Source: Candidatus Heimdallarchaeota archaeon (GTDB lineage: Archaea > Asgardarchaeota > Heimdallarchaeia > Hodarchaeales > Hodarchaeaceae). From it: 64,000 nucleotides of DNA. The position numbers were made by a program, and so were the translations under genes. Numbering within the stretch: position 1 is the first letter of the stretch; the number at the start of each line of letters is the position of its first letter. The notes beneath the pieces are model-generated. The model had not been told where the DNA came from. It saw only the letters and a program-made list of their open reading frames with translations, and searched no databases. Positions 29,257 to 42,026 of the stretch are shown here, piece after piece. Location: positions 821,057 to 885,056 of the forward strand of contig CP070695.1 of NCBI GenBank assembly GCA_020353515.1, in the 5' to 3' direction.

Positions 29257-31359
29257 ATGGTTGATATTCCAAAACGAATTGAAAGATTAGAGGAGCTTGC
29301 AGAGAATCTCACATGGGTATGGAACCCAAAAGCCCGTGAACTATTTAAACGTCTTGATCATCCTCTATGGGTTTATACTTACCATAATCCTGTTCGTATG
29401 CTGCAAATCATACCAAATAAAAGGTTAGATGCAGCTGCTCAGAACCCAGCTTTCCTTAAACATTATGATGGCGTCATGCATAATTTTGATCGTGATCTAG
29501 ATTCAAAGGACACATGGTTCTCAAATAACTACCCTCATTTTTCTGGGGAAATAGCTTATGTTAGCACTGAATATGGATTACATCAATCCCTCCCAATTTA
29601 TTCAGGTGGTTTAGGAATCCTTAGCGGAGATCATGTTAAGGAAAGTAGTGATTTAGGAGTTCCACTCGTAGGAGTAGGATTCGTGTATCCCCAAGGGTAT
29701 TTTACTCAGTTATTGCCAAGAAATGGGTGGCAAGAAGCGCAATATAATTACTTGAAATTTAATCAAATACCAATTAATCCTATTATCAAAAATGAAGCTG
29801 AACAATTACATATAGAACTAAAGTTCCCTAAGCCAATTTTTTTGAGAGTCTGGAACCTCAAGGTTGGAAGAACCCCACTTTATCTTATGGACACTGATAT
29901 TGATAAAAATGAACCATGGAACCGAGGTCTTTCAGCACGACTTTATGGAGGAGACCAAGAAATGAGGATACGTCAGGAAATTGTTCTTGGTTTCGGGTCT
30001 GTAAGGATTCTTTCACAACTTGGGCATAATCCAGAAGTATATCACTGTAATGAGGGTCATACTGCGTTTGTCGGCCTTGAACTTCTTCGAAGGGAGATGA
30101 TTGAGAATGGAAAGAGCTTTGAAGAAGCAACTAAAATTGTACGAAATAAGATTATTTTCACGACTCATACTCCAGTAAAAGCTGGACACGATCAATTTCC
30201 TTTTGAATTAGTATCAAAGTACTTCCAAGATTATTGGGAAAATTTGGGGATCAATCGTGATAAATTTTTAGCTCTTGGAGCATTCGATTGGGGAGATGGC
30301 CAAGGTCCAAGGTTTAATATGACGGCACTTGGTATTAGGTTAAGCCGGTATCAAAATGCTGTCTCAAAGCTCAATTGTGAAATAAGTAACAAAATGTGGA
30401 ATGGCCTTTTTTCTACACCTGAATTTGAGAACCGATTACCGATCCAGTTCGTCACCAACGGGGTTCATATTCCCACATGGATTAGCAGATCATTTCAAGC
30501 TTTATATAAAAAGTATTTAGGTAAAAATTGGATTGATAGACACGATGATCCTGACATATTCGAGAAAATTGACAATATCCCAAATAGGGAACTTTGGGCT
30601 GCCCGAGAAGAAGCAAGGGATCGGATGTTTGTATTTTTACGTGAAAGAGCCCGTATTAAAAGAATAGATGAGAATAAAGATTCCCGTCAGACCTTAGTTG
30701 CTGGAGCTCTTCTTGATCCTCATGCTTTGACAATTGGGTTTGCAAGAAGATTTGCAACTTATAAACGAGCATTTTTAATCTTTCATGATATTGAAAGACT
30801 CCGTAAAAGTCTATTGGACCGTTATACCCCTATTCAAATTATTTTCGCAGGAAAGGCTCACCCTGCTGATGATCCCGGGAAGAATGTTCTTCAACAGATT
30901 TACCAAAAGGCGGTAGATCCATCAATAGGGGGTCGAGTAGCTTTCATCGAAGATTATGATATGCAGGTAGGAAGGTACTTAGTCCAAGGCTGTGATGTGT
31001 GGCTTAATACACCCCGAAAACCTTTTGAAGCATCAGGTACTTCAGGTATGAAAGCTGCTATCAATGGGTGCCTTAACTTCTCTATTCTAGACGGGTGGTG
31101 GCCCGAAGGATATGATGGAAGTAATGGCTGGACTATTGGAGGCCAAGAGCAAAATAATATTGAAGATCAAAACCAGTATGATGTTAATTCGTTTTATAGA
31201 ATTCTAGAGGAAGAAATACGACCGTTATTTTATGATAAAGATAGTGAAGGAATACCAACGGGGTGGTGTGAAGTCGTTCGAAATTCAATTAAAAGTATAA
31301 CACCCGCTTTCTCTGCCCGAAGAATGCTTAAAGAATATGTAAAAGGATATATTCCATGA
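29257..31359 (+). CDS. glgP: Alpha-glucan (glycogen/maltodextrin) phosphorylase
   Basis: YSGGLGILSGD, HCNEGH, TTHTP, VTNGVH, FARRFATYKR, EASGTSGMK (PLP Lys). Start at 29257 or 29242. Confidence 0.95.
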   Translation: MVDIPKRIERLEELAENLTWVWNPKARELFKRLDHPLWVYTYHNPVRMLQIIPNKRLDAAAQNPAFLKHYDGVMHNFDRDLDSKDTWFSNNYPHFSGEIAYVSTEYGLHQSLPIYSGGLGILSGDHVKESSDLGVPLVGVGFVYPQGYFTQLLPRNGWQEAQYNYLKFNQIPINPIIKNEAEQLHIELKFPKPIFLRVWNLKVGRTPLYLMDTDIDKNEPWNRGLSARLYGGDQEMRIRQEIVLGFGSVRILSQLGHNPEVYHCNEGHTAFVGLELLRREMIENGKSFEEATKIVRNKIIFTTHTPVKAGHDQFPFELVSKYFQDYWENLGINRDKFLALGAFDWGDGQGPRFNMTALGIRLSRYQNAVSKLNCEISNKMWNGLFSTPEFENRLPIQFVTNGVHIPTWISRSFQALYKKYLGKNWIDRHDDPDIFEKIDNIPNRELWAAREEARDRMFVFLRERARIKRIDENKDSRQTLVAGALLDPHALTIGFARRFATYKRAFLIFHDIERLRKSLLDRYTPIQIIFAGKAHPADDPGKNVLQQIYQKAVDPSIGGRVAFIEDYDMQVGRYLVQGCDVWLNTPRKPFEASGTSGMKAAINGCLNFSILDGWWPEGYDGSNGWTIGGQEQNNIEDQNQYDVNSFYRILEEEIRPLFYDKDSEGIPTGWCEVVRNSIKSITPAFSARRMLKEYVKGYIP

Positions 31360-31375
31360 AGAATGTCGTTCTCTT

Positions 31376-31978
31376 TTAACCAGTTAGCATCTTTTGAGCA
31401 TTCTCTTGCCAAGTTTTGATCTGCTTGTCACTTTTTCGGCCGATCATTGTTGCAATCTCCTGACTGTGTTTACTTAATAAATCCCCAATTGTTTTGATGT
31501 TGGTTGCAACTAATTTATCAAAAGCTGCCTTTCCAATTCCCTTCACTTCTGAAACAGAAGTTAATGTATTTATAGTCGGTGCTGCAACAGTTGGTTTCAC
31601 AGGTTCCGCTACTGGTTCTGGTATTGGTTCTGGTGGTTTTTCAACAGGTTTTATTTTTCCCTTGACTTTGATTGGAGGTTTAGGTACTGGTTTAGGTTTT
31701 TCCTTTTTAGGCTTAGTTTTTGGTTGTACTTTAAGAGAAGGCGCCTTTTGAAATAACTTTCCAGTTTCAATGCAAAGCCAAAGATGTTGTTGTTTAGATG
31801 GATCATCAGGAAGGTAATGATACCCAATATCATAAATAGCCCCAGGACACGATTCTTTGTGCAACGCTTTAGCCACTCGTTTTGTTTTTGGAATGTATTT
31901 CTTCACCCAATGCTTACCAATAATATAAGTGTCACCTGGTTTTCCTAGTGTGTGTTTCCACAACATTAATAATACCAC
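31376..31978 (-). CDS. Hypothetical protein with Pro/Lys-rich linker and C-terminal helix-hairpin-helix domain
   Basis: VSEVKGIGKAAFDKLVATNIKTIGDLL HhH motif. Confidence 0.7.
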   Translation of the reverse strand: MVLLMLWKHTLGKPGDTYIIGKHWVKKYIPKTKRVAKALHKESCPGAIYDIGYHYLPDDPSKQQHLWLCIETGKLFQKAPSLKVQPKTKPKKEKPKPVPKPPIKVKGKIKPVEKPPEPIPEPVAEPVKPTVAAPTINTLTSVSEVKGIGKAAFDKLVATNIKTIGDLLSKHSQEIATMIGRKSDKQIKTWQENAQKMLTG

Positions 31979-32115
31979 TTTTCGATTAAACTGTTTGAAG
32001 ACGAGTTTTCAAAAAAACTATAACAGTTTCTCTTAATCTAGGAACAAGACTCTTAAGAACTTAAATCGTGTGAAAATCTTACTAATAAGTTATCTAATGA
32101 ATGTGGTGATTATAA

Positions 32116-33105
32116 ATGCAAAGTAACGAGCAAAGAAAGAGAATTGGAGTATTCTGTAGTGGGGGTGATGCTCCAGGTATGAATGCTTGTTTGCGAGCTG
32201 TAGTACGAAGAGGTATTGCGAAAAAACTTAATATAATTGCAATCCACAGAGGATTTCAGGGTATTTTCGATGAAGCATTTGAGAAAATGACTCCCCGTTC
32301 TGTTGGAAATATTCTCCAACTAGGCGGAACTATCATAAAAACCGCAAGATGTAAGAAGTTTTATTCAATAGAGGGGGTATTAGAGGCAGTGACTATATTA
32401 AAAAAACACAGATTGGATGGATTAATAGCAATAGGGGGAGATGGAACATTTCGTGGTTTATTAGAATTAAAAAAACTTTGGGATGGCCAAGTCATAGGGA
32501 TTCCAGGAACAATCGATAATGATATTTTTGGCACAGATTATACTATTGGTTATGACACTGCAATCGATACTGTTATTCAAATGCTTGATCGAATCAGAGA
32601 TACAGCAGAGTCACATGAACGTGCATTTGTTGTTGAAGTTATGGGACGTCATACAGGTTTTATCGCTCTCAAGGTGGGGATAGGATGTGGAGCTGAGGAG
32701 GTATTGATCCCAGAACATACTATTGATTTAGAAACTGTAGCTAGGCGTGTAAAGGTAGCTCAGAAACGAGGGAAAAAAAGTATTATCATCATAGTAGCGG
32801 AAGGGGTAAGTAAAGGTAACATTTTTGATTTTTGTAATCGTTTAACTACCCAAAAAGGATTGGAATTTCAAACACACATATCTATTTTAGGCCACGTACA
32901 ACGTGGAGGGTCACCAAGCGCTCTTGACCGATGGCTGGCAACACGACTTGGTGCATTCGCCGTCGACTGTGTTTTAAAAGGGGATACAGGAATTATGGTG
33001 GGTGAACAGAATCTCCAATTAGTAAAAATTCCCCTTGAGGATACACAAAAGAAAAAACCCATTGATTCCTATGCTTATGAAATAATTCACGATCTTGCGA
33101 TTTAA
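32116..33105 (+). CDS. pfkA: ATP-dependent 6-phosphofructokinase (PfkA family)
   Basis: SGGDAPGMNA, GGTIIKTARC, IGGDGT, PGTIDND, EVMGR, LGHVQRGG. Gly at both ATP/PPi-discriminating positions. Confidence 0.93.
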   Translation: MQSNEQRKRIGVFCSGGDAPGMNACLRAVVRRGIAKKLNIIAIHRGFQGIFDEAFEKMTPRSVGNILQLGGTIIKTARCKKFYSIEGVLEAVTILKKHRLDGLIAIGGDGTFRGLLELKKLWDGQVIGIPGTIDNDIFGTDYTIGYDTAIDTVIQMLDRIRDTAESHERAFVVEVMGRHTGFIALKVGIGCGAEEVLIPEHTIDLETVARRVKVAQKRGKKSIIIIVAEGVSKGNIFDFCNRLTTQKGLEFQTHISILGHVQRGGSPSALDRWLATRLGAFAVDCVLKGDTGIMVGEQNLQLVKIPLEDTQKKKPIDSYAYEIIHDLAI

Positions 33106-33138
33106 TGGTTAAAGAACAGTAAAAAGAGGTCACTTTAC

Positions 33139-34272
33139 ATGTGTGATACTTTCGTTGCACTCGGATCAGCTACTATTGATGGTAAGGTGATTTTTGGAAA
33201 AAATAGTGACAGACCATATCTAGAAAAACAAACAATTGTGTATTTCCCAAGAAAACAATATACAGATGAAACTGTTCTTAAATGTACTCACATCTCCATC
33301 CCACAAGTCGAGGAAACACATGCAGTTTTACTTTCAAAACCTAGTTGGATGTGGGGGGCAGAGATGGGAGCTAATGAAAAGAATGTCGTAATTGGCAATG
33401 AAGCCATATTCGACACAAAAGAACCTTTAGGACCCCCTTCATTAATTGGAATGGACTTAGTTCGTCTCGCTCTCGAGCGATCTTCAACCACTATTCAGGC
33501 TGTCCACATTATTTGCGAATTGCTAGAGACATACAATCAAGGAGGAGCATGCGCGGAAGATGATCCGACGTTAATGTACCATAATTCCTTTCTCATAGCA
33601 GATTCTAATGAAGCCTGGGTTCTAGAAACCGCAGGGAAGTGGTGGATTGCTCAACAGATTAAAGACGGATTTAGAAATATCTCAAATTCTTTGTCAATTC
33701 GATCAGAATATACTCTTGCCAAAGAAGGGATTGTAGATTATGTCCTTGATAAAGACTATTGTGACAACCGTGGAGAGTTTAATTTTGCAAAATGCTTTAC
33801 TAAAGGTTTTTATCAAACCCCTTCAAGATATTCACGGGAAGGTTGGGGAAATTATCTTTTACAATTAAATTCTGGAAACATTGGTCCAAAAATTATGATG
33901 GAGATCCTCCGTGATCATTATGGGGGTATCTGTATGCATGGGGCCTTCCGAACGACCGCTTCTCAGGTTTCTTATCTTTCGAGAAAGAATACTATTCATT
34001 GGATGACAGGATCACCACACCCATGTGTTAGTTTCTTTAAACCATTTGTTGTTCCAAGGCAAAATCAACCTATAGAAATTGACATCTTTTCACAAAGAGA
34101 TAATCTCAATCTATTAGAAAAACAGGCTATAATTCAGGAACTACATTCTTTCGAGCAAGAATTAATCCAATCTATTCAAAATATAATCCAGACCGATAAT
34201 TGGTTAATGAAAGATATTCAGACTCTCACCCAGGAAGCTCTAAAGCGTGAGTATTCATTAATTTCGGCGTGA
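33139..34272 (+). CDS. C69-family dipeptidase / secernin-like Ntn hydrolase
   Basis: N-terminal MCDTFVAL, FGKNSDR, WMWGAEMGANE, GMDLVRLALER. Confidence 0.9.
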   Translation: MCDTFVALGSATIDGKVIFGKNSDRPYLEKQTIVYFPRKQYTDETVLKCTHISIPQVEETHAVLLSKPSWMWGAEMGANEKNVVIGNEAIFDTKEPLGPPSLIGMDLVRLALERSSTTIQAVHIICELLETYNQGGACAEDDPTLMYHNSFLIADSNEAWVLETAGKWWIAQQIKDGFRNISNSLSIRSEYTLAKEGIVDYVLDKDYCDNRGEFNFAKCFTKGFYQTPSRYSREGWGNYLLQLNSGNIGPKIMMEILRDHYGGICMHGAFRTTASQVSYLSRKNTIHWMTGSPHPCVSFFKPFVVPRQNQPIEIDIFSQRDNLNLLEKQAIIQELHSFEQELIQSIQNIIQTDNWLMKDIQTLTQEALKREYSLISA

Positions 34273-34521: not shown

Positions 34522-35703
34522 TTGGAGATACCATTGGAACACGTTAAAAGGCAAAATTTGTCGTCTTTTTATTCGGCTTTCAATCTCCTAGAAAAAACAG
34601 CGAAAAGAACGGTAAATTCGATAAATGAAAATCCTCCTTGCCTTGTAGAATTTTGTAAAACACTTGAAGAAGCGAAAGAGAAAGACAAGAGGATACATCT
34701 CGTGGGGATGGGTAGATCAGGAAAAGTAGGTATGTTATTAGGGGAATTATTAAAAAATGTAGGTTATAAAGTCTCATATTTAGGTAAAAGTCTTGCCAAA
34801 CCAGTCCGAAGAGATGATGTAGTTATTGGTATCACTGGTTCAGGATGGACTAGCTTCACGATAAATACCTTACAGGAATCAATTAGTAGAGGCGCAAAAA
34901 TTTTAGTTTTCACTGGTGACCAGCATTCTCTTGCAGCAAGATTAGCAGATTCAATTATTCTTATCCCACGGGGATATGTGAAGGAAAAGTTCGCTCCTGT
35001 TTCTCATGCTGCCTTAACACCTGTTTCTCACGCACCTCTTACCCCACTTGGCACAGTATTTGAAATGACATCTATGTGTATTGGTATTGGTGTAATTTTA
35101 GGACTCCGAGACGACTCATCTGTTAAAGGGTTTAATGAAAGTGTAAATGAAGTTTTAAGAGCAGCAGAAATGACTTTAGACAATATTAAGAGAAACGAAC
35201 AACCTTTACTGCAGTTTGTCACTCTCCTTGAAAGTTATTCCAGCCAATCAGGTAAAATGCTATTTGTCTATGGTAGTGGCCTAGATTCAATTATCGCAAG
35301 TATTTCCTCTATTAGATTAAGTCATCTAAGAATTAATTGTAAATCAAATTATGATTGGAGATTCAGAGGGAAAAAAGACTTACTTATTGGAATCTCGGGT
35401 TCAGGTGTATCCACAAGTACTTTAGAACGTGTTGAAAGTGCGAAATCCGCCCATATGCGCATAGTTGGGTTAACATCTTTTTCAGAATCAGAATTAGCTA
35501 GAAAATCAGATATTTTTCTCCCTATTGAGGGAAGAACAGAAAAGATAAGTGCTGATTTACATCAAATATCGAATCTTAGCTTCTTAATTCCTTCATTTGA
35601 ATACGCGGCCGCAATTACTTTAGATTCATGTGTTGCTCAATTAGCAATGGATCTAGGCATTAGTGAGAGAGAAATGAAAGAAGAGCATGCGAATATTGAA
35701 TGA
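34522..35703 (+). CDS. phi: 6-phospho-3-hexuloisomerase, internally duplicated (two SIS domains)
   Basis: Domain 1: GMGRSG, ITGSG, PLGTVFE. Domain 2: RLSHL, ISGSG, C-terminal EMKEEHANIE. Confidence 0.85.
   Translation: MEIPLEHVKRQNLSSFYSAFNLLEKTAKRTVNSINENPPCLVEFCKTLEEAKEKDKRIHLVGMGRSGKVGMLLGELLKNVGYKVSYLGKSLAKPVRRDDVVIGITGSGWTSFTINTLQESISRGAKILVFTGDQHSLAARLADSIILIPRGYVKEKFAPVSHAALTPVSHAPLTPLGTVFEMTSMCIGIGVILGLRDDSSVKGFNESVNEVLRAAEMTLDNIKRNEQPLLQFVTLLESYSSQSGKMLFVYGSGLDSIIASISSIRLSHLRINCKSNYDWRFRGKKDLLIGISGSGVSTSTLERVESAKSAHMRIVGLTSFSESELARKSDIFLPIEGRTEKISADLHQISNLSFLIPSFEYAAAITLDSCVAQLAMDLGISEREMKEEHANIE
34996..35043 (+). repeat. Imperfect 24-bp in-frame tandem duplication (PVSHAALT/PVSHAPLT)
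   Basis: cctgtttctcatgctgccttaaca followed by cctgtttctcacgcacctcttacc. Confidence 0.8.
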
Positions 35704-35705
35704 TT

Positions 35706-36005
35706 TCAGAGTCCAAGCTTAAAAAATCCACCTGCGATTAGTGGAAAAATGGACACCTCACAGTCGTGACTTAAGCTAGTATCTAATCCCTCCAGAGCAA
35801 GTATATTTCGTCCATCAATAAGAATTGTAAATCCTTTTTTTAATTCTTCATTTTCTAAAAAGAAAGAACTTCCTTTTTTACCAGATTTCGATTGAAAAAA
35901 GTCGAAAATCTGCCTCAATTCTATAGGTTCCTTAATAACAATATTATGAGTTTCTCCAAATTCCAATTGTAAAATGGCAAAAAAAATGAGCCTTATTGTA
36001 ATCAT
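35706..36005 (-). CDS. moaD: MoaD/SAMP ubiquitin-like sulfur carrier with a 6-residue extension after GG
   Basis: IRLIFFA...ILIDGRNI...LDT.L....VSIFPLIAGG-FFKLGL; 4-bp overlap with the AOR-HPS stop. Confidence 0.85.
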   Translation of the reverse strand: MITIRLIFFAILQLEFGETHNIVIKEPIELRQIFDFFQSKSGKKGSSFFLENEELKKGFTILIDGRNILALEGLDTSLSHDCEVSIFPLIAGGFFKLGL

Positions 36006-38455
36006 TGGTCTTTACTCGTCAAAATTACATTTTTAAGATGTAGAGTTGCTTGTTGTGGATTAGCTGACCTTGTAATTGCTGAACCTACAATGATGATATC
36101 AGCACCACATTCGATAGCTTTCGGAATGGTTTCCGCTTTCAGTCCACCCGCTACTGCAATTGGAATCTTGATAATCTCTCTTAATCTTTTTAATGTGGGA
36201 AAAGGAATTTTATCAAAATCTGATCGCAGTTGTTGATCTATACCTATGTGTAATCCAATAATATCCACACCAAGCTTTTCCAAATCAATGGCTCGGTTAA
36301 TAGGATCCTTTATCCCAATTAAATCGGCGAAAATTTTGACTCCAAATTTTTTTCCTGCCCCAACAGCATCTTTAATGGTACTATCTGGAGCTATACCTAA
36401 AATACATACAATATCAGCACCAGCTAACGCAGCCATCTCTGTTTCTAAATAGCTCGCATCCATTGTCTTAAGGTCAGCAACAATTGTTTTGTGAGGAAAG
36501 AGCTGACGTAATTTACTAACTGATTCTATACCAGTTGCTTTAATTAAAGGGGTGCCCGCTTCAATCCAGTCCACGCCTCCCAAAGCACTTTTCTGAGCTA
36601 TTTTAAGGGCTTCATCCAGATCGCGAAGATCTAAAGCAATTTGAAGTTTTGTATGAGTTTTAATAGGTTGAATATTAAGCTCTCCTAATTTTCGATCTGA
36701 AGGGATTCCTAAATCTCCCCAGCCTCTGATATTATAATATTCTTTTAAAAGACCATTAATATTAAGGGTGTGACCCTTAGCTGGTCCTTCAGGTAACGAT
36801 TCTTTTTGAAATCTTGAAGGGAGGACATCATTTTCTTTTGTCAATCCTTCTCGAATATTAAACAAGCGTTCTAAATTGTAAATTCTTTCTCCAATTTTCC
36901 TGAACTCATCCTCATCAATATAAAAACCAGTAGCGGTAGTTAAAAGCTTCGCATAAATTTCGACTTCGCACTTAAACGTTGAGAATACAGCCATTGCAGT
37001 GAATTTACACCATTCAGCAGAATCGAGAGCAGCAAATACATCCTGCAAATTTTTGACTAGATTCGCTTTTTCCTCTTCTGCAAAGGGGTCGACAAAATGG
37101 GGTAAGCTTAATACTTCTTGAATAACAGTGTAAGCTTTTAAATGGGTTCCCCCACTATTGGAGGTGACGTAGCTAAGTGCCATGCCCTTTATTCCTCTTG
37201 GATCATAAGCAGGTAATTCCAAGCCTTTAACATGGCATGCAAACTTTGTTGTTTCCTTACCAATTTGATTAGCGGCATTTCTTACTCCGTTTGCCAATAA
37301 GTCACCTTCATTCCTTCGATAAGCAATATTTTCTATTAATGAAAGAAGCGCTTGACCATCACCAAATGGTATAGCGTTAGGAATGATTTTTTTTTCACTA
37401 CATTCCATAAACCATCCAATAACGTTTCCAGTAGAAATAGTATCTAATCCTAGCTTGTTACAAAGCGAATTAGCTTTAAATATAGTCTCAAGATCGCTTA
37501 TACCGCAATTAGGACCTAGAGCCCATAATGATTCATATTCAGGACCTTGTGTTTCTATCTCCTTGTATTTCATGATCCTCCCGCAAGCAATAGGACAGCC
37601 TCGGCAAGGTTCTTTCTTCACTAAGTATTCCCTAAGTGTTTCACCTGCAATTTGACGTACATCATCAAAAATACCAGTACTGAAGTTTTTAACAGGAAGT
37701 ACACCGTGCTTATTTACAATGTTAACAAGAATAGGAGTTCCATAAAGTCCCATTCCAGTTCCTGTCACAGGGTGCCCCTTTAAGATCTCTAAAAACTTTT
37801 TATTAACCTTCCGAAACGCGTGTTGGTTAACAGGGACGACTTTTCCATTTCCTCGAACTACAACAGCTTTAAGCTTTTTTGAACCCCAAACAGCTCCAAT
37901 ACCTCCTCTCCCTGCAGTTCTTGTTCCATTGATTACGCAGGCAAAATGAACTAGATTTTCCCCTGCAGGACCTATAGCTGCAACAGAATGACCACTGTGA
38001 CGCTTTTTTAGTAATCCTTCTGTTTCATCGATAGTTTTCCCCCATAGATTCGTGGCATCTTGAATTAAAACGTTCTTTGCATTTATTAAAAGATAAACAG
38101 GGGTATCAGACGCATCCTCGATAATAATACCATCATAACCTGCTCGTTTTATCTCAATCCCTAGTCTTCCCCCACAATGAGTATCATTAAGGGTTCGTTC
38201 TGTGAGTGGACTCTTGAAAACCATACACCACCTCGAAGTAGTAGGAGATGTTGTTCCTGTCATTGGCCCTGTCATAATGACAACTTTATTATCTGCGCTT
38301 AACGGATTAATCCCTGATTTAAGCTCGTCATACAAAATTTTAACGCCATACCCTCTTCCTCCAAGGTATTCTTGAGCGATATCAAGGTTTATTGGTTCTC
38401 TTTTGATCTCTTTTGTCTTTAAATTAACTCTCAGAATATGATTAGCGTAGGTCAC
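36002..38455 (-). CDS. Aldehyde:ferredoxin oxidoreductase (W/Mo-pterin AOR family) fused to C-terminal 3-hexulose-6-phosphate synthase
   Basis: AOR (aa ~1-600): GRGGIGAVWGSKKLKA, CRGCPIAC, GPEYE, GLDTIS, KGLELPAYDPRG, WCKF, YYNIRGW. HPS (aa ~603-817): LQIALD, IEAGTPLIK, VADLKTMDA, HIGIDQQ, AVAGG, IVGSAIT. Confidence 0.92.
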   Translation of the reverse strand: MTYANHILRVNLKTKEIKREPINLDIAQEYLGGRGYGVKILYDELKSGINPLSADNKVVIMTGPMTGTTSPTTSRWCMVFKSPLTERTLNDTHCGGRLGIEIKRAGYDGIIIEDASDTPVYLLINAKNVLIQDATNLWGKTIDETEGLLKKRHSGHSVAAIGPAGENLVHFACVINGTRTAGRGGIGAVWGSKKLKAVVVRGNGKVVPVNQHAFRKVNKKFLEILKGHPVTGTGMGLYGTPILVNIVNKHGVLPVKNFSTGIFDDVRQIAGETLREYLVKKEPCRGCPIACGRIMKYKEIETQGPEYESLWALGPNCGISDLETIFKANSLCNKLGLDTISTGNVIGWFMECSEKKIIPNAIPFGDGQALLSLIENIAYRRNEGDLLANGVRNAANQIGKETTKFACHVKGLELPAYDPRGIKGMALSYVTSNSGGTHLKAYTVIQEVLSLPHFVDPFAEEEKANLVKNLQDVFAALDSAEWCKFTAMAVFSTFKCEVEIYAKLLTTATGFYIDEDEFRKIGERIYNLERLFNIREGLTKENDVLPSRFQKESLPEGPAKGHTLNINGLLKEYYNIRGWGDLGIPSDRKLGELNIQPIKTHTKLQIALDLRDLDEALKIAQKSALGGVDWIEAGTPLIKATGIESVSKLRQLFPHKTIVADLKTMDASYLETEMAALAGADIVCILGIAPDSTIKDAVGAGKKFGVKIFADLIGIKDPINRAIDLEKLGVDIIGLHIGIDQQLRSDFDKIPFPTLKRLREIIKIPIAVAGGLKAETIPKAIECGADIIIVGSAITRSANPQQATLHLKNVILTSKDQ

Positions 38456-39725: not shown

Positions 39726-42026
39726 CTAAAGATGAATAACGTCACCACTTTGTAACGATTCAAGGGCAGCACGTGCGACTCGAAGAGCAGAAATACCATC
39801 AGAAATAGGAATAGGTACTTCTTCATCATTTAATATCGCTTTGGCAAATGCACCAACTTGATCAACAAAAAATGGTAATTGATCAAATTCTTCTAAAGTT
39901 GGTTCAAGTCCGTCTAATTCAGTATTTTTAACAGCAGGCTGTTTTGATGGATCAATCTGGATGGTTCCGTCCTCACCATAAACAAACATCTTTGTATTAT
40001 TTCCAACTTGGTCTCTGAGGTCTGCCTCGGCCCAGGAAGCTTCTATTGTAATCAATACCCCTGATTGAGATTGGAGAGTAATGACAACAGTATCCCATGT
40101 ATCAATCTCAGGATAAACAGAATTTGATCCAATTGCATAAACAGTTTTTATCGGATCATTTGGACCTAGAAACCATTGAACTAGATCAATATCGTGTATT
40201 GCTAGATCTACAGCTATCCCCCCACTTTTATCAATGTTCCAAAACCAATCTGCTACTGGTGGTCCTCTTCCCCTTCGGTGCGCATGAATGGAAACTATGG
40301 AACCAATCTCACCTTTATCTATTACCCTTTTTGTAGTAGAATAGTGAGACATAAACCGACATATCATTGCAACCATTAGTTTGACATTATTTTTCTTTAA
40401 TTCATGTTCAACTGCTTTTAACTCTTCTGGATGTAATAATATGGGTTTCTCACAAAGAATATGTTTTCCTGCATTTGCTGCAGCGACAATGTATTCTTTA
40501 TGAACGAAAGTTGGCACACAGATTGATACTGCTTGTAATTGAGGATCATTGAGAGCTTCAAGATAATCCTCGTAAATATTGGTTACCCCAAAAAATAATG
40601 CTGCTCCTTGAAGTGATACTGGATTTCGTGTAGCAAACGAGTGCAATTCTGTCCATGAGCAAGCAGAATAAGCAGCAGCATGAACTTGCCCGATCCCTCC
40701 CAATCCAATTACCCCTATTTTTAAGGGATTGTCGACTTTTGGAATACCTGAAATTAGTTCATACACTTTTGGAGAAGTCCTTGTAGAAAGCATTGTACCA
40801 ATGATTCGTTCCTTAATTCCGAGTTTAGTATTCAATATTTCTTCCATTTCTCTTAAAAATTTTCCAGCAATCAAAGATAACTCAATATAAGACAATTGAT
40901 GCCAATTAGGTAAACCAATTACATTTTCAGTAATTTTATCTGTAATAGGACAGCGGGAATCAGTATAGAACACTTCTTGTTCAAAAAAAGGACAAGTAAA
41001 TGGGCATTTACGGTTTCCATAACCCATTCTCTCCTTAAAGAGAGTAGAAGTGTAAAGACCAGCAGGATAAATTAACTGTGTTATCTGAAAGTCACGATTA
41101 AGACGATCAGCCAATTCTTTTCCCGTCATCCCAACTATTGATGGATCTATTTGTAGAGCATAAGCATGGAATACATGTTTTCCATTCTCTGGCATTTGAG
41201 GTAAGGCTACCCCTGGAATATCTTTTAATAATGAATTTAAATATAATGAGTTCTTAATTCGTCCATCATTCATCTGATCAAGTTTTTTTAGTTGTTCTAA
41301 GCCAATTGCTGCCTGTATGGTTGTCATACGATAATTATAACCTAATCTCTCATATGTGTACCAAGATGGTTCCCCATGATGTCTAACTAATCGGCATTGC
41401 TCAGCAAATTCGGGGTCATCAGTAACTATAATACCTCCCTCACCAGTCATCATATTTTTGGATTCAAAGAGACTAAAACATCCTGCCTTTCCAAATGTCC
41501 CTATTTTTTTCCCATCATATTCTGCTCCATGAGCTTGACATGCATCCTCAATCAAAACTAAGTTATGTTTTTCAGCAAACTCAAGAAGAGATGTTAAGTC
41601 CATTGGATAACCAAATAAATGTACAGGGATAATTGCTTTTGTTTGGTCAGTTACCTTATTCTTTAAGTCAGTAGGATCCATACAAAAGGTATTAGGGTCA
41701 ATGTCAACAAATACTGGAATAGCATTTTGATGTAGAACAGCTGTGGCTGTAGCAACAAATGTATAAGGTGGAATTAAGACTTCATCTCCAGCTCCAATTC
41801 CAGCAGCAGCTAAAGACACATGTAAAGCAGCCGTTCCTGAACTAACAGCAATAGCGTACTTAGCACCCATGTAATTAGCAAATGCTGTTTCAAACTCCTC
41901 TATTTCAGTACCACTCATGAAAGTTAAACGTTTATCACGCATAACACGCTTTACAGCCAAGATCTCTTCCCGTTCAACTTTTCGATCCATTGGGAATAGA
42001 TCTCGGGGTTTAATTTTACGGGTCAT
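39726..42026 (-). CDS. DegT/DnrJ/EryC1/StrS sugar aminotransferase fused to a Gfo/Idh/MocA oxidoreductase
   Basis: N-terminal: SSGTAALH, IEDACQAHGA, SLFESKNMMTGEGG, GYNYRM. C-terminal (from ~40735): IGVIGLGGIG, ILCEKP, SGGIAVDLAIHDID. Confidence 0.92.
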   Translation of the reverse strand: MTRKIKPRDLFPMDRKVEREEILAVKRVMRDKRLTFMSGTEIEEFETAFANYMGAKYAIAVSSGTAALHVSLAAAGIGAGDEVLIPPYTFVATATAVLHQNAIPVFVDIDPNTFCMDPTDLKNKVTDQTKAIIPVHLFGYPMDLTSLLEFAEKHNLVLIEDACQAHGAEYDGKKIGTFGKAGCFSLFESKNMMTGEGGIIVTDDPEFAEQCRLVRHHGEPSWYTYERLGYNYRMTTIQAAIGLEQLKKLDQMNDGRIKNSLYLNSLLKDIPGVALPQMPENGKHVFHAYALQIDPSIVGMTGKELADRLNRDFQITQLIYPAGLYTSTLFKERMGYGNRKCPFTCPFFEQEVFYTDSRCPITDKITENVIGLPNWHQLSYIELSLIAGKFLREMEEILNTKLGIKERIIGTMLSTRTSPKVYELISGIPKVDNPLKIGVIGLGGIGQVHAAAYSACSWTELHSFATRNPVSLQGAALFFGVTNIYEDYLEALNDPQLQAVSICVPTFVHKEYIVAAANAGKHILCEKPILLHPEELKAVEHELKKNNVKLMVAMICRFMSHYSTTKRVIDKGEIGSIVSIHAHRRGRGPPVADWFWNIDKSGGIAVDLAIHDIDLVQWFLGPNDPIKTVYAIGSNSVYPEIDTWDTVVITLQSQSGVLITIEASWAEADLRDQVGNNTKMFVYGEDGTIQIDPSKQPAVKNTELDGLEPTLEEFDQLPFFVDQVGAFAKAILNDEEVPIPISDGISALRVARAALESLQSGDVIHL

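What the first reader, a model, noticed from the sequence alone, without database searches (positions are those of the whole stretch)
34522..38455. AOR-HPS fusion with double PHI and MoaD: reverse RuMP with built-in formaldehyde oxidation
Seen: one 817-aa ORF holds a complete AOR (pterin and 4Fe-4S motifs) joined by a short linker to a complete HPS. It is coupled to moaD, which ends 2 bp from a convergent PHI gene. Established: many archaea make ribulose-5-phosphate by running PHI and HPS in reverse, which releases toxic formaldehyde; known fusions are HPS-PHI (Thermococcales) and Fae-HPS (methanogens); AOR-family tungstoenzymes such as FOR oxidise formaldehyde with ferredoxin. Inference: this is a third solution in which formaldehyde from HPS passes to the fused AOR, giving formate and reduced ferredoxin and pulling the reaction toward pentose. 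The opposite direction, formate reduction to formaldehyde and fixation into hexulose-6-phosphate, would be a two-domain C1-assimilation enzyme. I do not know of a description of this fusion.
Basis: partly seen in the sequence, partly recalled or inferred. Interest (0 to 1): 0.9.

Follow-up and report, generated by a model that had tools for sequence, protein, structure and literature searches.

The report
Aldehyde oxidoreductase fused to hexulose-phosphate synthase
One gene of this Asgard (Hodarchaeales-like) archaeon joins the enzyme that splits a six-carbon sugar phosphate into pentose phosphate plus toxic formaldehyde to a tungsten-type enzyme that oxidises aldehydes. The fusion is real and widely conserved, I found no paper describing it, and it probably shows how cells that lack the usual formaldehyde-trapping enzyme dispose of formaldehyde while making pentoses.

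Summary
ORF 36002-38455(-) encodes 817 aa: a complete AOR (AFOR_N and AFOR_C, all Fe-S and catalytic residues present), a ~6-residue linker, and a complete HPS (TIGR03128, 210 bits against a cut-off of 200). A MoaD-like gene overlaps its stop codon (ATGA). A tandem-PHI gene ends 2 bp beyond that, convergent.

The fusion is not an artefact. More than 100 protein clusters from Asgard, Thermoplasmata, Methanomethylicia and Nezhaarchaeota share the architecture, and junction length is identical in 70 of 77. Their AOR domains form one clade. It is not KGPDC: three specificity positions are in the HPS state.

- The AOR domain belongs to the AOR sensu stricto clade, not FOR.
- MoaD-like genes accompany several AOR paralogues in this genome.
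- PHI adjacency is lineage-specific and occurs without the fusion too.
- The genome also has a 6PGDH, so this is not the only route to Ru5P.

Best reading (about 0.6): reverse RuMP, with formaldehyde oxidised to formate by the fused AOR, as a functional analogue of Fae-HPS. No fusion genome tested has Fae (0 of 18). Channelling and direction are inferred, not shown.

I found no paper describing the fusion. This scan has already reported it in at least six other genomes.

The parts
36002..38455 (-). AOR-HPS fusion gene, 817 aa, GTG start.
   Evidence: AF2 model: pLDDT 93.3, pTM 0.89. It is the best of the genome's 10 AFOR_C loci and its only HPS match.
37850..38440 (-). AFOR_N domain (aa 6-202).
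   Evidence: PF02730, 252 bits.
36671..37810 (-). AFOR_C domains 2 and 3 (aa 216-595). They carry the Fe-S cysteines C284, C287, C291 and C483, and the catalytic E308 and H438.
   Evidence: PF01314, 455 bits. Alignment to 1aor. These residues are invariant in 77 fused sequences. TM-score 0.95 to 9mqx, 9g7j and 1aor.
36653..36670 (-). Short linker of fixed length (aa 596-601).
   Evidence: junction length is identical in 70 of 77 fused homologues. pLDDT is about 78 here.
36023..36652 (-). 3-hexulose-6-phosphate synthase domain (aa 602-811).
   Evidence: TIGR03128, 210 bits against a cut-off of 200. 9lj9 (HPS-PHI) 220 bits and 3ajx 141 bits, against KGPDC 73 bits. D711, I739 and A769 are in the HPS state.
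35706..36005 (-). MoaD/ThiS-like beta-grasp gene, 99 aa. It overlaps the fusion stop by 4 nt and has a GG motif followed by a 6-aa tail.
   Evidence: An orthologue lies directly downstream of the fusion in all 13 fusion genomes of the genus and in 0 of 9 genomes without it. A ThiS-family gene is also adjacent in Nezhaarchaeales and Methanomethylicaceae.
34522..35703 (+). Tandem (double) PHI-like SIS gene, 393 aa. Database gene calls start 12 nt downstream and give 389 aa.
   Evidence: Both halves are closest to PHI-family structures (1vim, 9lj9 PHI part, 1jeo, 1m3s). The family has 107 clusters, and nearly all that carry a source name are Asgard.
32116..33105 (+). Phosphofructokinase (context).
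   Evidence: PF00365, 345 bits.
29242..31359 (+). Glucan phosphorylase-like gene (context).
   Evidence: DUF3417 plus Phosphorylase.

Best explanation
The 817-aa protein is a bifunctional enzyme of the reverse ribulose-monophosphate route.

Proposed steps:
1. The tandem PHI converts fructose-6-phosphate to 3-hexulose-6-phosphate.
2. The C-terminal HPS domain cleaves this to ribulose-5-phosphate plus formaldehyde.
3. The N-terminal pterin/[4Fe-4S] AOR domain oxidises the formaldehyde to formate and passes two electrons to ferredoxin.

Removing formaldehyde pulls the otherwise unfavourable cleavage and prevents toxicity. In function the protein is an analogue of the Fae-HPS fusion, in organisms that lack Fae. 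Formate can then go to formyl-THF or to CO2. The co-transcribed MoaD-like protein most likely serves maturation of the AOR pterin cofactor.

Shown here: domain identity, conservation of the catalytic residues, single origin of the fusion, and its distribution. Inferred: formaldehyde as the AOR substrate, direct hand-over between the two domains, and the net direction.
For: - Both domains are complete and the catalytic and cofactor residues are invariant in 77 fused homologues.
- It is the only HPS in a single-contig 4.94-Mb genome. That genome has no Fae, transketolase, transaldolase or G6PD_C, but has RpiA.
- Formate sinks are present: FTHFS at 785 bits, and FDH alpha TIGR01591 at 737 bits against a cut-off of 666.
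- The fused AOR domains form one clade (SH-aLRT 95 and 97). None of the genome's nine stand-alone AOR paralogues falls inside it.
- There is a bit-score gap between fused representatives (671 and 653) and the best unfused one (538).
- The linker is short and of fixed length, and the single-chain model has pTM 0.89.
- Fae is absent from all 18 fusion genomes tested and present in 12 of 22 sampled non-fusion Asgard genomes outside the window's genus. Within family f19 the fusion and Fae do not co-occur in the sampled genera.
- AOR-clade enzymes do oxidise formaldehyde: AOR from A. aromaticum at 4.1 U/mg (PMC6365974).
- RuBisCO-like genes give pentose breakdown another exit, so a forward RuMP is not needed for catabolism.
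- From memory, not computed here: HPS cleavage has Keq of about 4e-5 M, and E0' of formate/formaldehyde is about -535 mV. Coupling to ferredoxin would then make the overall reaction favourable at mM concentrations.
Against: - There is no biochemical or expression evidence.
- The AOR domain is not of the FOR clade. AORs have broad specificity and typically millimolar Km for formaldehyde (from memory), so formaldehyde is inferred from the fusion partner only.
- The genome also has a 6PGDH next to an FGGY kinase, transporters and a glucose-dehydrogenase-like gene. This is another possible source of Ru5P.
- Nine same-genus genomes lack both the fusion and Fae. The three examined closely (G057, G058, G064) carry a stand-alone HPS-like gene. 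The fusion is therefore not the only way to live without Fae.
- No WtpA tungstate-binding protein was found, so the metal is unknown.
- The model coordinates could not be read, so no tunnel or active-site distance was measured.
Confidence: 0.6

Rival explanations
1. Reductive, assimilatory direction. The AOR domain reduces formate to formaldehyde using low-potential ferredoxin. The HPS domain at once condenses it with Ru5P to hexulose-6-phosphate. This would be a two-domain formate-fixing enzyme, or a freely reversible enzyme whose direction depends on conditions.
For: - AOR-clade enzymes can reduce acids to aldehydes, at low rates (PMC6365974).
- HPS condensation is strongly favoured (from memory) and could pull the reaction.
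- The genome can make Ru5P by 6PGDH and has nucleoside or AMP phosphorylase-like genes next to a second tandem PHI. With no transketolase or transaldolase, pentose phosphate would need an exit to hexose phosphate.
Against: - Acid reduction by AORs needs very low potential and low pH, and is slow.
- RuBisCO-like genes offer the usual archaeal exit for pentoses.
- The known analogue Fae-HPS works in the pentose-forming direction (from memory).
- In the sampled genomes the fusion never co-occurs with Fae-HPS, which points to the same role as Fae-HPS.
- No natural precedent is known.
Confidence: 0.15
2. The fusion gives co-expression or stoichiometry only. The AOR domain is a general aldehyde:ferredoxin oxidoreductase that clears formaldehyde from solution along with other aldehydes. 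There is no direct hand-over, and the AOR domain may have another main substrate.
For: - The AOR-clade placement implies broad specificity.
- The MoaD-like companion is generic to AOR paralogues.
- No inter-domain geometry could be measured here.
Against: - The linker is very short and of fixed length across phyla.
- The fusion had a single origin and has been retained over long times.
- The clade has its own conserved insert after the fourth Fe-S cysteine, with F491, T493 and E497.
- The whole-chain pTM is high.
All of these argue for a fixed two-domain unit rather than loose tethering.
Confidence: 0.2
3. The feature is an artefact or non-functional: an assembly chimera, a lost stop codon, a KGPDC-type C-terminal domain, or a dead AOR domain.
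For: None found.
Against: - More than 100 independent clusters share the architecture.
- The junction is constant.
- TIGR03128 scores above its cut-off and the three KGPDC/HPS specificity positions are in the HPS state.
- All Fe-S and catalytic residues are invariant.
Confidence: 0.01

Closest known systems
Fae-HPS bifunctional enzyme of methanogens and other H4MPT users (NCBIfam NF009833 / PRK13307)
   Same: An HPS domain is fused to an enzyme that removes the formaldehyde made by HPS in the pentose-forming reverse RuMP route. In the Asgard genomes sampled, Fae-HPS and AOR-HPS never co-occur.
   Different: The partner is a ~600-aa pterin/[4Fe-4S] oxidoreductase that would oxidise formaldehyde to formate with ferredoxin. 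Fae is instead a ~160-aa lyase that condenses formaldehyde with H4MPT. The fused HPS domain scores only 144 bits on the Fae-HPS model (cut-off 274) and is closer to the HPS-PHI type.
HPS-PHI bifunctional enzyme of Thermococcales (NF041755; PDB 9lj9)
   Same: Its HPS domain is the closest solved relative (220 bits, about 50% identity). Both belong to the same pathway.
   Different: Here PHI is a separate gene that has been duplicated in tandem. The fusion partner is on the N-terminal side and is an oxidoreductase. HPS-PHI has no formaldehyde sink.
Aldehyde:ferredoxin oxidoreductase sensu stricto (P. furiosus AOR 1aor; C. autoethanogenum AOR 9g7j; 9mqx; A. aromaticum AorB 8c0z)
   Same: The domains, fold (TM-score 0.95), Fe-S ligands and the catalytic Glu and His are the same. 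The association with a MoaD-like gene is as in the aorABCDE operon (PMC6365974).
   Different: It carries a C-terminal HPS domain, forms a separate clade, and has a clade-specific insert after the fourth Fe-S cysteine.
Formaldehyde:ferredoxin oxidoreductase (P. furiosus FOR, 1b25)
   Same: It belongs to the same superfamily and carries out the chemistry proposed here.
   Different: It is a clearly more distant match than AOR (338 against 517 bits), so the fused domain is not a FOR orthologue.

Membership tests
AOR family (tungsto/molybdopterin aldehyde oxidoreductases) | AFOR_N plus AFOR_C domain architecture and fold | tested here: met
   PF02730 at 252 bits and PF01314 at 455 bits. TM-score 0.95 to 1aor, 9g7j and 9mqx.
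AOR family (tungsto/molybdopterin aldehyde oxidoreductases) | Four Cys ligands of the [4Fe-4S] cluster and the catalytic Glu and His (Pf AOR C288, C291, C295, C494, E313, H448) | tested here: met
   C284, C287, C291, C483, E308 and H438 align to them and are invariant in 77 fused sequences.
AOR family (tungsto/molybdopterin aldehyde oxidoreductases) | Tungsten (or Mo) bis-pterin cofactor actually bound | not testable with these tools
   The pterin-motif residues are conserved (N333..D338, D478-S479). No WtpA was found in the genome. The metal is unknown.
FOR subfamily (formaldehyde:ferredoxin oxidoreductase) | Closest relationship to characterised FOR rather than to other AOR subfamilies | tested here: not met
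   1b25 scores 338 bits, against 517 for 1aor, 496 for 9mqx and 486 for 9g7j.
3-hexulose-6-phosphate synthase (TIGR03128 RuMP_HxlA) | Score above the curated equivalog cut-off | tested here: met
   210 bits and 214 bits, against a cut-off of 200.
3-hexulose-6-phosphate synthase (TIGR03128 RuMP_HxlA) | Metal and catalytic residues of the OMPDC suprafamily, and the HPS state at the three positions that separate HPS from KGPDC (KGPDC E112, R139, T169) | tested here: met
   D609, E632, D661, K663 and H736 are invariant. D711, I739 and A769 align to the E112D, R139V and T169A positions of 1xbx and 1xby.
3-keto-L-gulonate-6-phosphate decarboxylase (UlaD/SgbH) | Score above the curated cut-off and the E112/R139/T169 state | tested here: not met
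   83-92 bits against cut-offs of 250-294. The specificity residues are in the HPS state.
Fae-HPS bifunctional enzyme (NF009833) | A Fae domain N-terminal to HPS | tested here: not met
   There is no Fae domain in the protein or in the genome. The protein may work like Fae-HPS but is not a member of that family.
6-phospho-3-hexuloisomerase (TIGR03127 RuMP_HxlB), for the 393-aa neighbour | Score above the curated cut-off | tested here: not met
   The whole protein scores 127 bits against a cut-off of 160, with halves at 69.5 and 60.8 bits. The best solved relatives of both halves are still PHI-family proteins, so it is PHI-like and its activity is inferred.
MoaD/ThiS beta-grasp sulfur carriers, for the 99-aa neighbour | ThiS-family fold signature and a C-terminal Gly-Gly | tested here: inconclusive
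   PF02597 scores 32.7 bits, above its cut-off of 22.5. moaD_arch (33 bits, cut-off 49.5) and SAMP1 (33 bits, cut-off 60) are below theirs. GG is present but followed by a 6-aa tail. Orthologues have tails of 0 to more than 25 aa.

The most novel reading that the evidence does not exclude
AOR-HPS is a naturally evolved, reversible two-domain C1 module. In one direction it releases pentose phosphate from hexose phosphate while conserving the C1 unit as formate and reduced ferredoxin. At low ferredoxin potential and high formate it runs backwards and fixes formate directly into sugar phosphate, passing formaldehyde between the active sites without release. That would be a formate-assimilation route with no known natural precedent.
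Probability: 0.12. Interest if true: 0.9.

Novelty: new variant of a known kind. Interest (0 to 1): 0.65.

Why it matters
How archaea that use the reverse RuMP route but lack H4MPT and Fae cope with stoichiometric formaldehyde is an open point in archaeal central metabolism. This includes Asgard lineages close to the origin of eukaryotes. A conserved AOR-HPS fusion gives a concrete, testable answer.

It would also add a physiological role and substrate to the AOR family, most of whose members have no assigned function. It would conserve the C1 unit as formate and reduced ferredoxin rather than wasting it.

If the enzyme is reversible or channels formaldehyde, it would interest people designing synthetic formate or formaldehyde assimilation.

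Current database names hide the architecture. Entries are called '3-hexulose-6-phosphate synthase', 'aldehyde ferredoxin oxidoreductase' or 'orotidine 5'-phosphate decarboxylase'. Metabolic reconstructions therefore probably count the AOR and the HPS as separate, unrelated genes.

Tried and rejected
- Complex prediction on the AOR domain (1-597) against the HPS domain (598-817), each with its alignment: 'no answer', score 0.00. This is evidence neither for nor against an interface.
- The AF2 model coordinates are not readable from the script box. No tunnel or active-site distance could be measured.
- Six literature searches on AOR/HPS/fusion, Asgard RuMP, and tungsten with hexulose found no description of the fusion. 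Two metagenomic papers discuss AOR and HPS/PHI as separate genes only.
- I first held that the fusion is the only route to pentose phosphate. I dropped this after finding a 6PGDH cluster.
- I considered the MoaD-like gene as part of a RuMP-specific system. I rejected this because ThiS-family genes also sit beside two other AOR paralogues, and MoaD-like genes are known in aor operons.
- A WtpA search, meant to argue for tungsten, gave no match. No conclusion on the metal.
- The artefact and KGPDC readings are rejected.


Full report
**1. Observation.**
- ORF 36002..38455(-) has a GTG start and encodes 817 aa.
- ORF 35706..36005(-) encodes 99 aa. Its ATG overlaps the TGA of the long gene (ATGA).
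- ORF 34522..35703(+) encodes 393 aa, is convergent, and ends 2 bp from the 99-aa gene.

Pfam and NCBIfam give the following.
- The long protein has AFOR_N at aa 6-202, AFOR_C at aa 216-595 and OMPdecase at aa 602-803.
- The C-terminal domain scores 210 bits on the HPS equivalog TIGR03128 (cut-off 200). It scores far below cut-off on the UlaD/KGPDC and OMP-decarboxylase models.
- The small protein is a ThiS/MoaD-type beta-grasp.
- The 393-aa protein is two SIS halves, both PHI-like.

**2. The fusion is not an artefact.** A search of 5.8 billion proteins returned more than 100 clusters at 90% identity with the same AFOR_N + AFOR_C + OMPdecase architecture. They are 42-87% identical to the query and come from NCBI, JGI, ENA and Logan assemblies. 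Source names include Hodarchaeales, Heimdall-, Thor- and Hermodarchaeota, Thermoplasmata, Methanomethylicaceae, Nezhaarchaeales and Thermoprotei.

In an alignment of 77 full-length members (A1), the stretch between the AOR C-terminus and the HPS start has the same length in 70. The linker is only about 6 residues.

The AF2 model built from that alignment has pLDDT 93.3 and pTM 0.89. Foldseek matches the N-terminal 600 residues to AORs (TM-score 0.95) and the C-terminal 215 to HPS (TM-score 0.94). No solved chain covers both parts.

**3. Identity of the domains.**

AOR part:
- The best solved relatives are P. furiosus AOR 1aor (517 bits), 9mqx (496), C. autoethanogenum AOR 9g7j (486) and A. aromaticum AorB 8c0z (416).
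- FOR 1b25 scores only 338, WOR5 199 and BamB 174.
- The Cys-x2-Cys-x3-Cys motif plus the distal Cys (C284, C287, C291, C483) and the catalytic E308 and H438 align with the Pf AOR residues. They are invariant in the 77 fused sequences.

HPS part:
- 9lj9 (HPS-PHI) scores 220 bits and M. gastri HPS 3ajx 141 bits, against 73 for KGPDC.
- Three substitutions named in the titles of PDB entries 1xbx and 1xby (E112D, R139V, T169A) were used, as I recall, to push KGPDC towards HPS activity. At those positions the domain has D711, I739 and A769, which is the HPS state. All three are invariant or nearly so in the family.

**4. Origin.** At 50% clustering, the fused representatives score 671 and 653 bits against the AOR domain, and the best unfused protein scores 538.

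I built a maximum-likelihood tree of 94 AOR domains (IQ-TREE quick, LG+G4). It held 33 fused domains, 52 unfused representatives and the nine stand-alone paralogues of this genome.
- All fused domains fall on one side of a branch (SH-aLRT 95; 97 for the main group of 30).
- One 562-aa protein, probably truncated, joins them.
- None of the genome's own paralogues falls inside.
- This quick search has no bootstrap. It is compatible with a single origin of the fusion.

The clade has its own signature: an insert after the fourth Fe-S cysteine with conserved F491, T493 and E497, plus K249, T506 and T507.

**5. Genome context (single 4.94-Mb contig, 96% complete).**
- The fused HPS is the only HPS match.
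- There are ten AOR-family loci.
- Not found: Fae, transketolase N-domain, transaldolase and G6PD_C.
- Present: RpiA, formate-THF ligase and a formate dehydrogenase alpha subunit above its equivalog cut-off. Formate therefore has sinks.
- Caveat: the genome has a 6-phosphogluconate dehydrogenase. It lies next to an FGGY kinase, two transporters and a glucose-dehydrogenase-like gene. Ru5P can probably also be made from gluconate, and the fusion is not the only route.
- RuBisCO-like genes are present. They offer the usual archaeal exit for nucleoside pentoses.

**6. Distribution against Fae.** Among 400 genomes of the phylum, fused frames (~814-859 aa) occur in four places:
- the window's own genus, in 13 of 22 genomes counting the window's own (two have the gene split over contig ends or interrupted);
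- one genus of family f4;
- genus g39 of family f19;
- family f30.

Fae is absent from all 22 genomes of the window's genus and from the five other fusion genomes. It is present in 12 of 22 sampled non-fusion Asgard genomes outside the genus, with the best match in each lying in a ~405-434-aa frame typical of Fae-HPS. Within f19, genus g39 has the fusion and no Fae, and g36, g38 and g42 have Fae and no fusion.

These genomes are related, so this is about four independent lineages. It is a pattern, not a statistic. Nine same-genus genomes lack both the fusion and Fae. The three I examined (G057, G058, G064) carry a stand-alone, divergent HPS-like gene of about 122 bits. The fusion is therefore not the only solution.

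**7. The neighbours.**

MoaD-like gene:
- An orthologue lies directly downstream of the fusion in all 13 fusion genomes of the genus and in none of the nine without it.
- A ThiS-family gene also flanks the fusion in Nezhaarchaeales and Methanomethylicaceae, in divergent orientation.
- In this genome, three of six ThiS-family genes sit beside AOR-family genes.
- MoaD-like aorD and aorE are known in the bacterial aor operon, where a role in W-cofactor synthesis was suggested (PMC6365974).
- I therefore read it as an AOR maturation factor and not as a RuMP component.

Tandem PHI:
- Both halves are closest to PHI-family structures, but the protein is below the TIGR03127 cut-off.
- Where sources give a name, the family is almost all Asgard, with one Korarchaeota cluster.
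- It is convergent with HPS in same-genus genomes that have an unfused HPS as well.
- It is not adjacent to the fusion in other phyla. The PHI pairing is thus independent of the fusion.

**8. Mechanism.** The best reading has three steps. F6P is converted to Hu6P by the tandem PHI. Hu6P is cleaved to Ru5P plus formaldehyde by the HPS domain. Formaldehyde is oxidised to formate, with two ferredoxins reduced, by the AOR domain.

From memory, not computed here: the HPS equilibrium strongly favours condensation (cleavage Keq about 4e-5 M), and the formate/formaldehyde couple is near -535 mV. Oxidation by ferredoxin would then supply roughly the energy needed, and the overall reaction becomes favourable at millimolar concentrations.

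AOR-clade enzymes oxidise formaldehyde, though not preferentially. A fixed, very short linker would raise the local concentration of substrate.

The reverse reading is that formate is reduced and trapped by HPS. The near-equilibrium energetics and the known acid-reducing activity of AORs do not exclude it. I rate it lower because the fusion never co-occurs with Fae-HPS in the genomes sampled, and because another exit for pentoses exists.

**9. Novelty.** I found no paper that describes the fusion. Metagenomic papers mention AOR and HPS/PHI separately. The proteins are in public databases under partial names.

This scan has already reported the same fusion in at least six other genomes, with similar conclusions. 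My tests were made independently on this genome. They agree on the main points and add five things:
- the placement in the AOR clade rather than FOR;
- the generic nature of the MoaD companion;
- the independence of the PHI pairing from the fusion;
- the three KGPDC/HPS specificity positions;
- the 6PGDH caveat.

It is a new variant of a known kind, namely HPS fusions that handle formaldehyde.

Noticed in passing
G065:C1:1043672-1050721 (loci L030, L025): In a same-genus genome on a single contig, the fusion gene is interrupted inside the HPS domain. HPS profile positions 1-65 end a 708-aa frame, and positions 70-205 resume about 6.4 kb downstream. The insert begins with a 338-aa ORF that has no Pfam match. 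It could be a mobile element or another insertion.
   Followed up: partly
Proteins P0037, P0040, P0043 (about 990 aa; other genomes): A longer form of the fusion carries a second, degenerate OMPdecase-like stretch of about 180 aa between the AOR and the HPS domain, giving a tandem barrel. Its AOR domains nest within the main fused clade. This may build the HPS dimer into one chain.
   Followed up: partly
window 35706-35730 (-), and loci L039-L050: The MoaD-like proteins downstream of the fusion all have the motif FFPxxxGG. What follows the GG varies from nothing to more than 25 residues. The longest tails read into the antisense of the convergent PHI gene. This suggests C-terminal processing or drifting stop codons.
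   Followed up: partly
G000:C1:3522984-3527347 (outside the window; locus L031): A second tandem-PHI paralogue (388 aa) lies next to two Glycos_transf_3/PYNP_C genes (AMP or nucleoside phosphorylase-like) and near a HAD hydrolase and an inositol monophosphatase-family gene. This links the tandem-PHI family to pentose and nucleoside metabolism.
   Followed up: partly
G000:C1:1828670-1836385 (outside the window; locus L052): A cluster holds an FGGY sugar kinase, 6-phosphogluconate dehydrogenase, EamA and MFS transporters, and a Zn-ADH/glucose-dehydrogenase-like gene. It may be a gluconate-to-Ru5P route in a genome with no G6PD_C, transketolase or transaldolase.
   Followed up: partly
L027:303-3321 (G058) and the equivalent loci in G064 and G057: Same-genus genomes without the fusion have a stand-alone, divergent HPS-like gene of 247 aa (TIGR03128 about 122 bits). 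In G058, the one locus I annotated, a radical-SAM-like gene precedes it and it is convergent with a tandem-PHI gene. How these genomes dispose of formaldehyde is unexplained.
   Followed up: partly
window 39726-42026 (-): A 766-aa ORF fuses a DegT/DnrJ/EryC1 aminotransferase (aa 18-344) to a GFO/IDH/MocA oxidoreductase (aa 435-764). It is probably a bifunctional amino-sugar enzyme.
   Followed up: no
window 29242-34272 (+): Upstream of the PHI gene lie a glucan phosphorylase-like gene, a phosphofructokinase and a peptidase C69/AAT-like gene. The sugar-phosphate context matches the other first-stage note on this stretch.
   Followed up: partly
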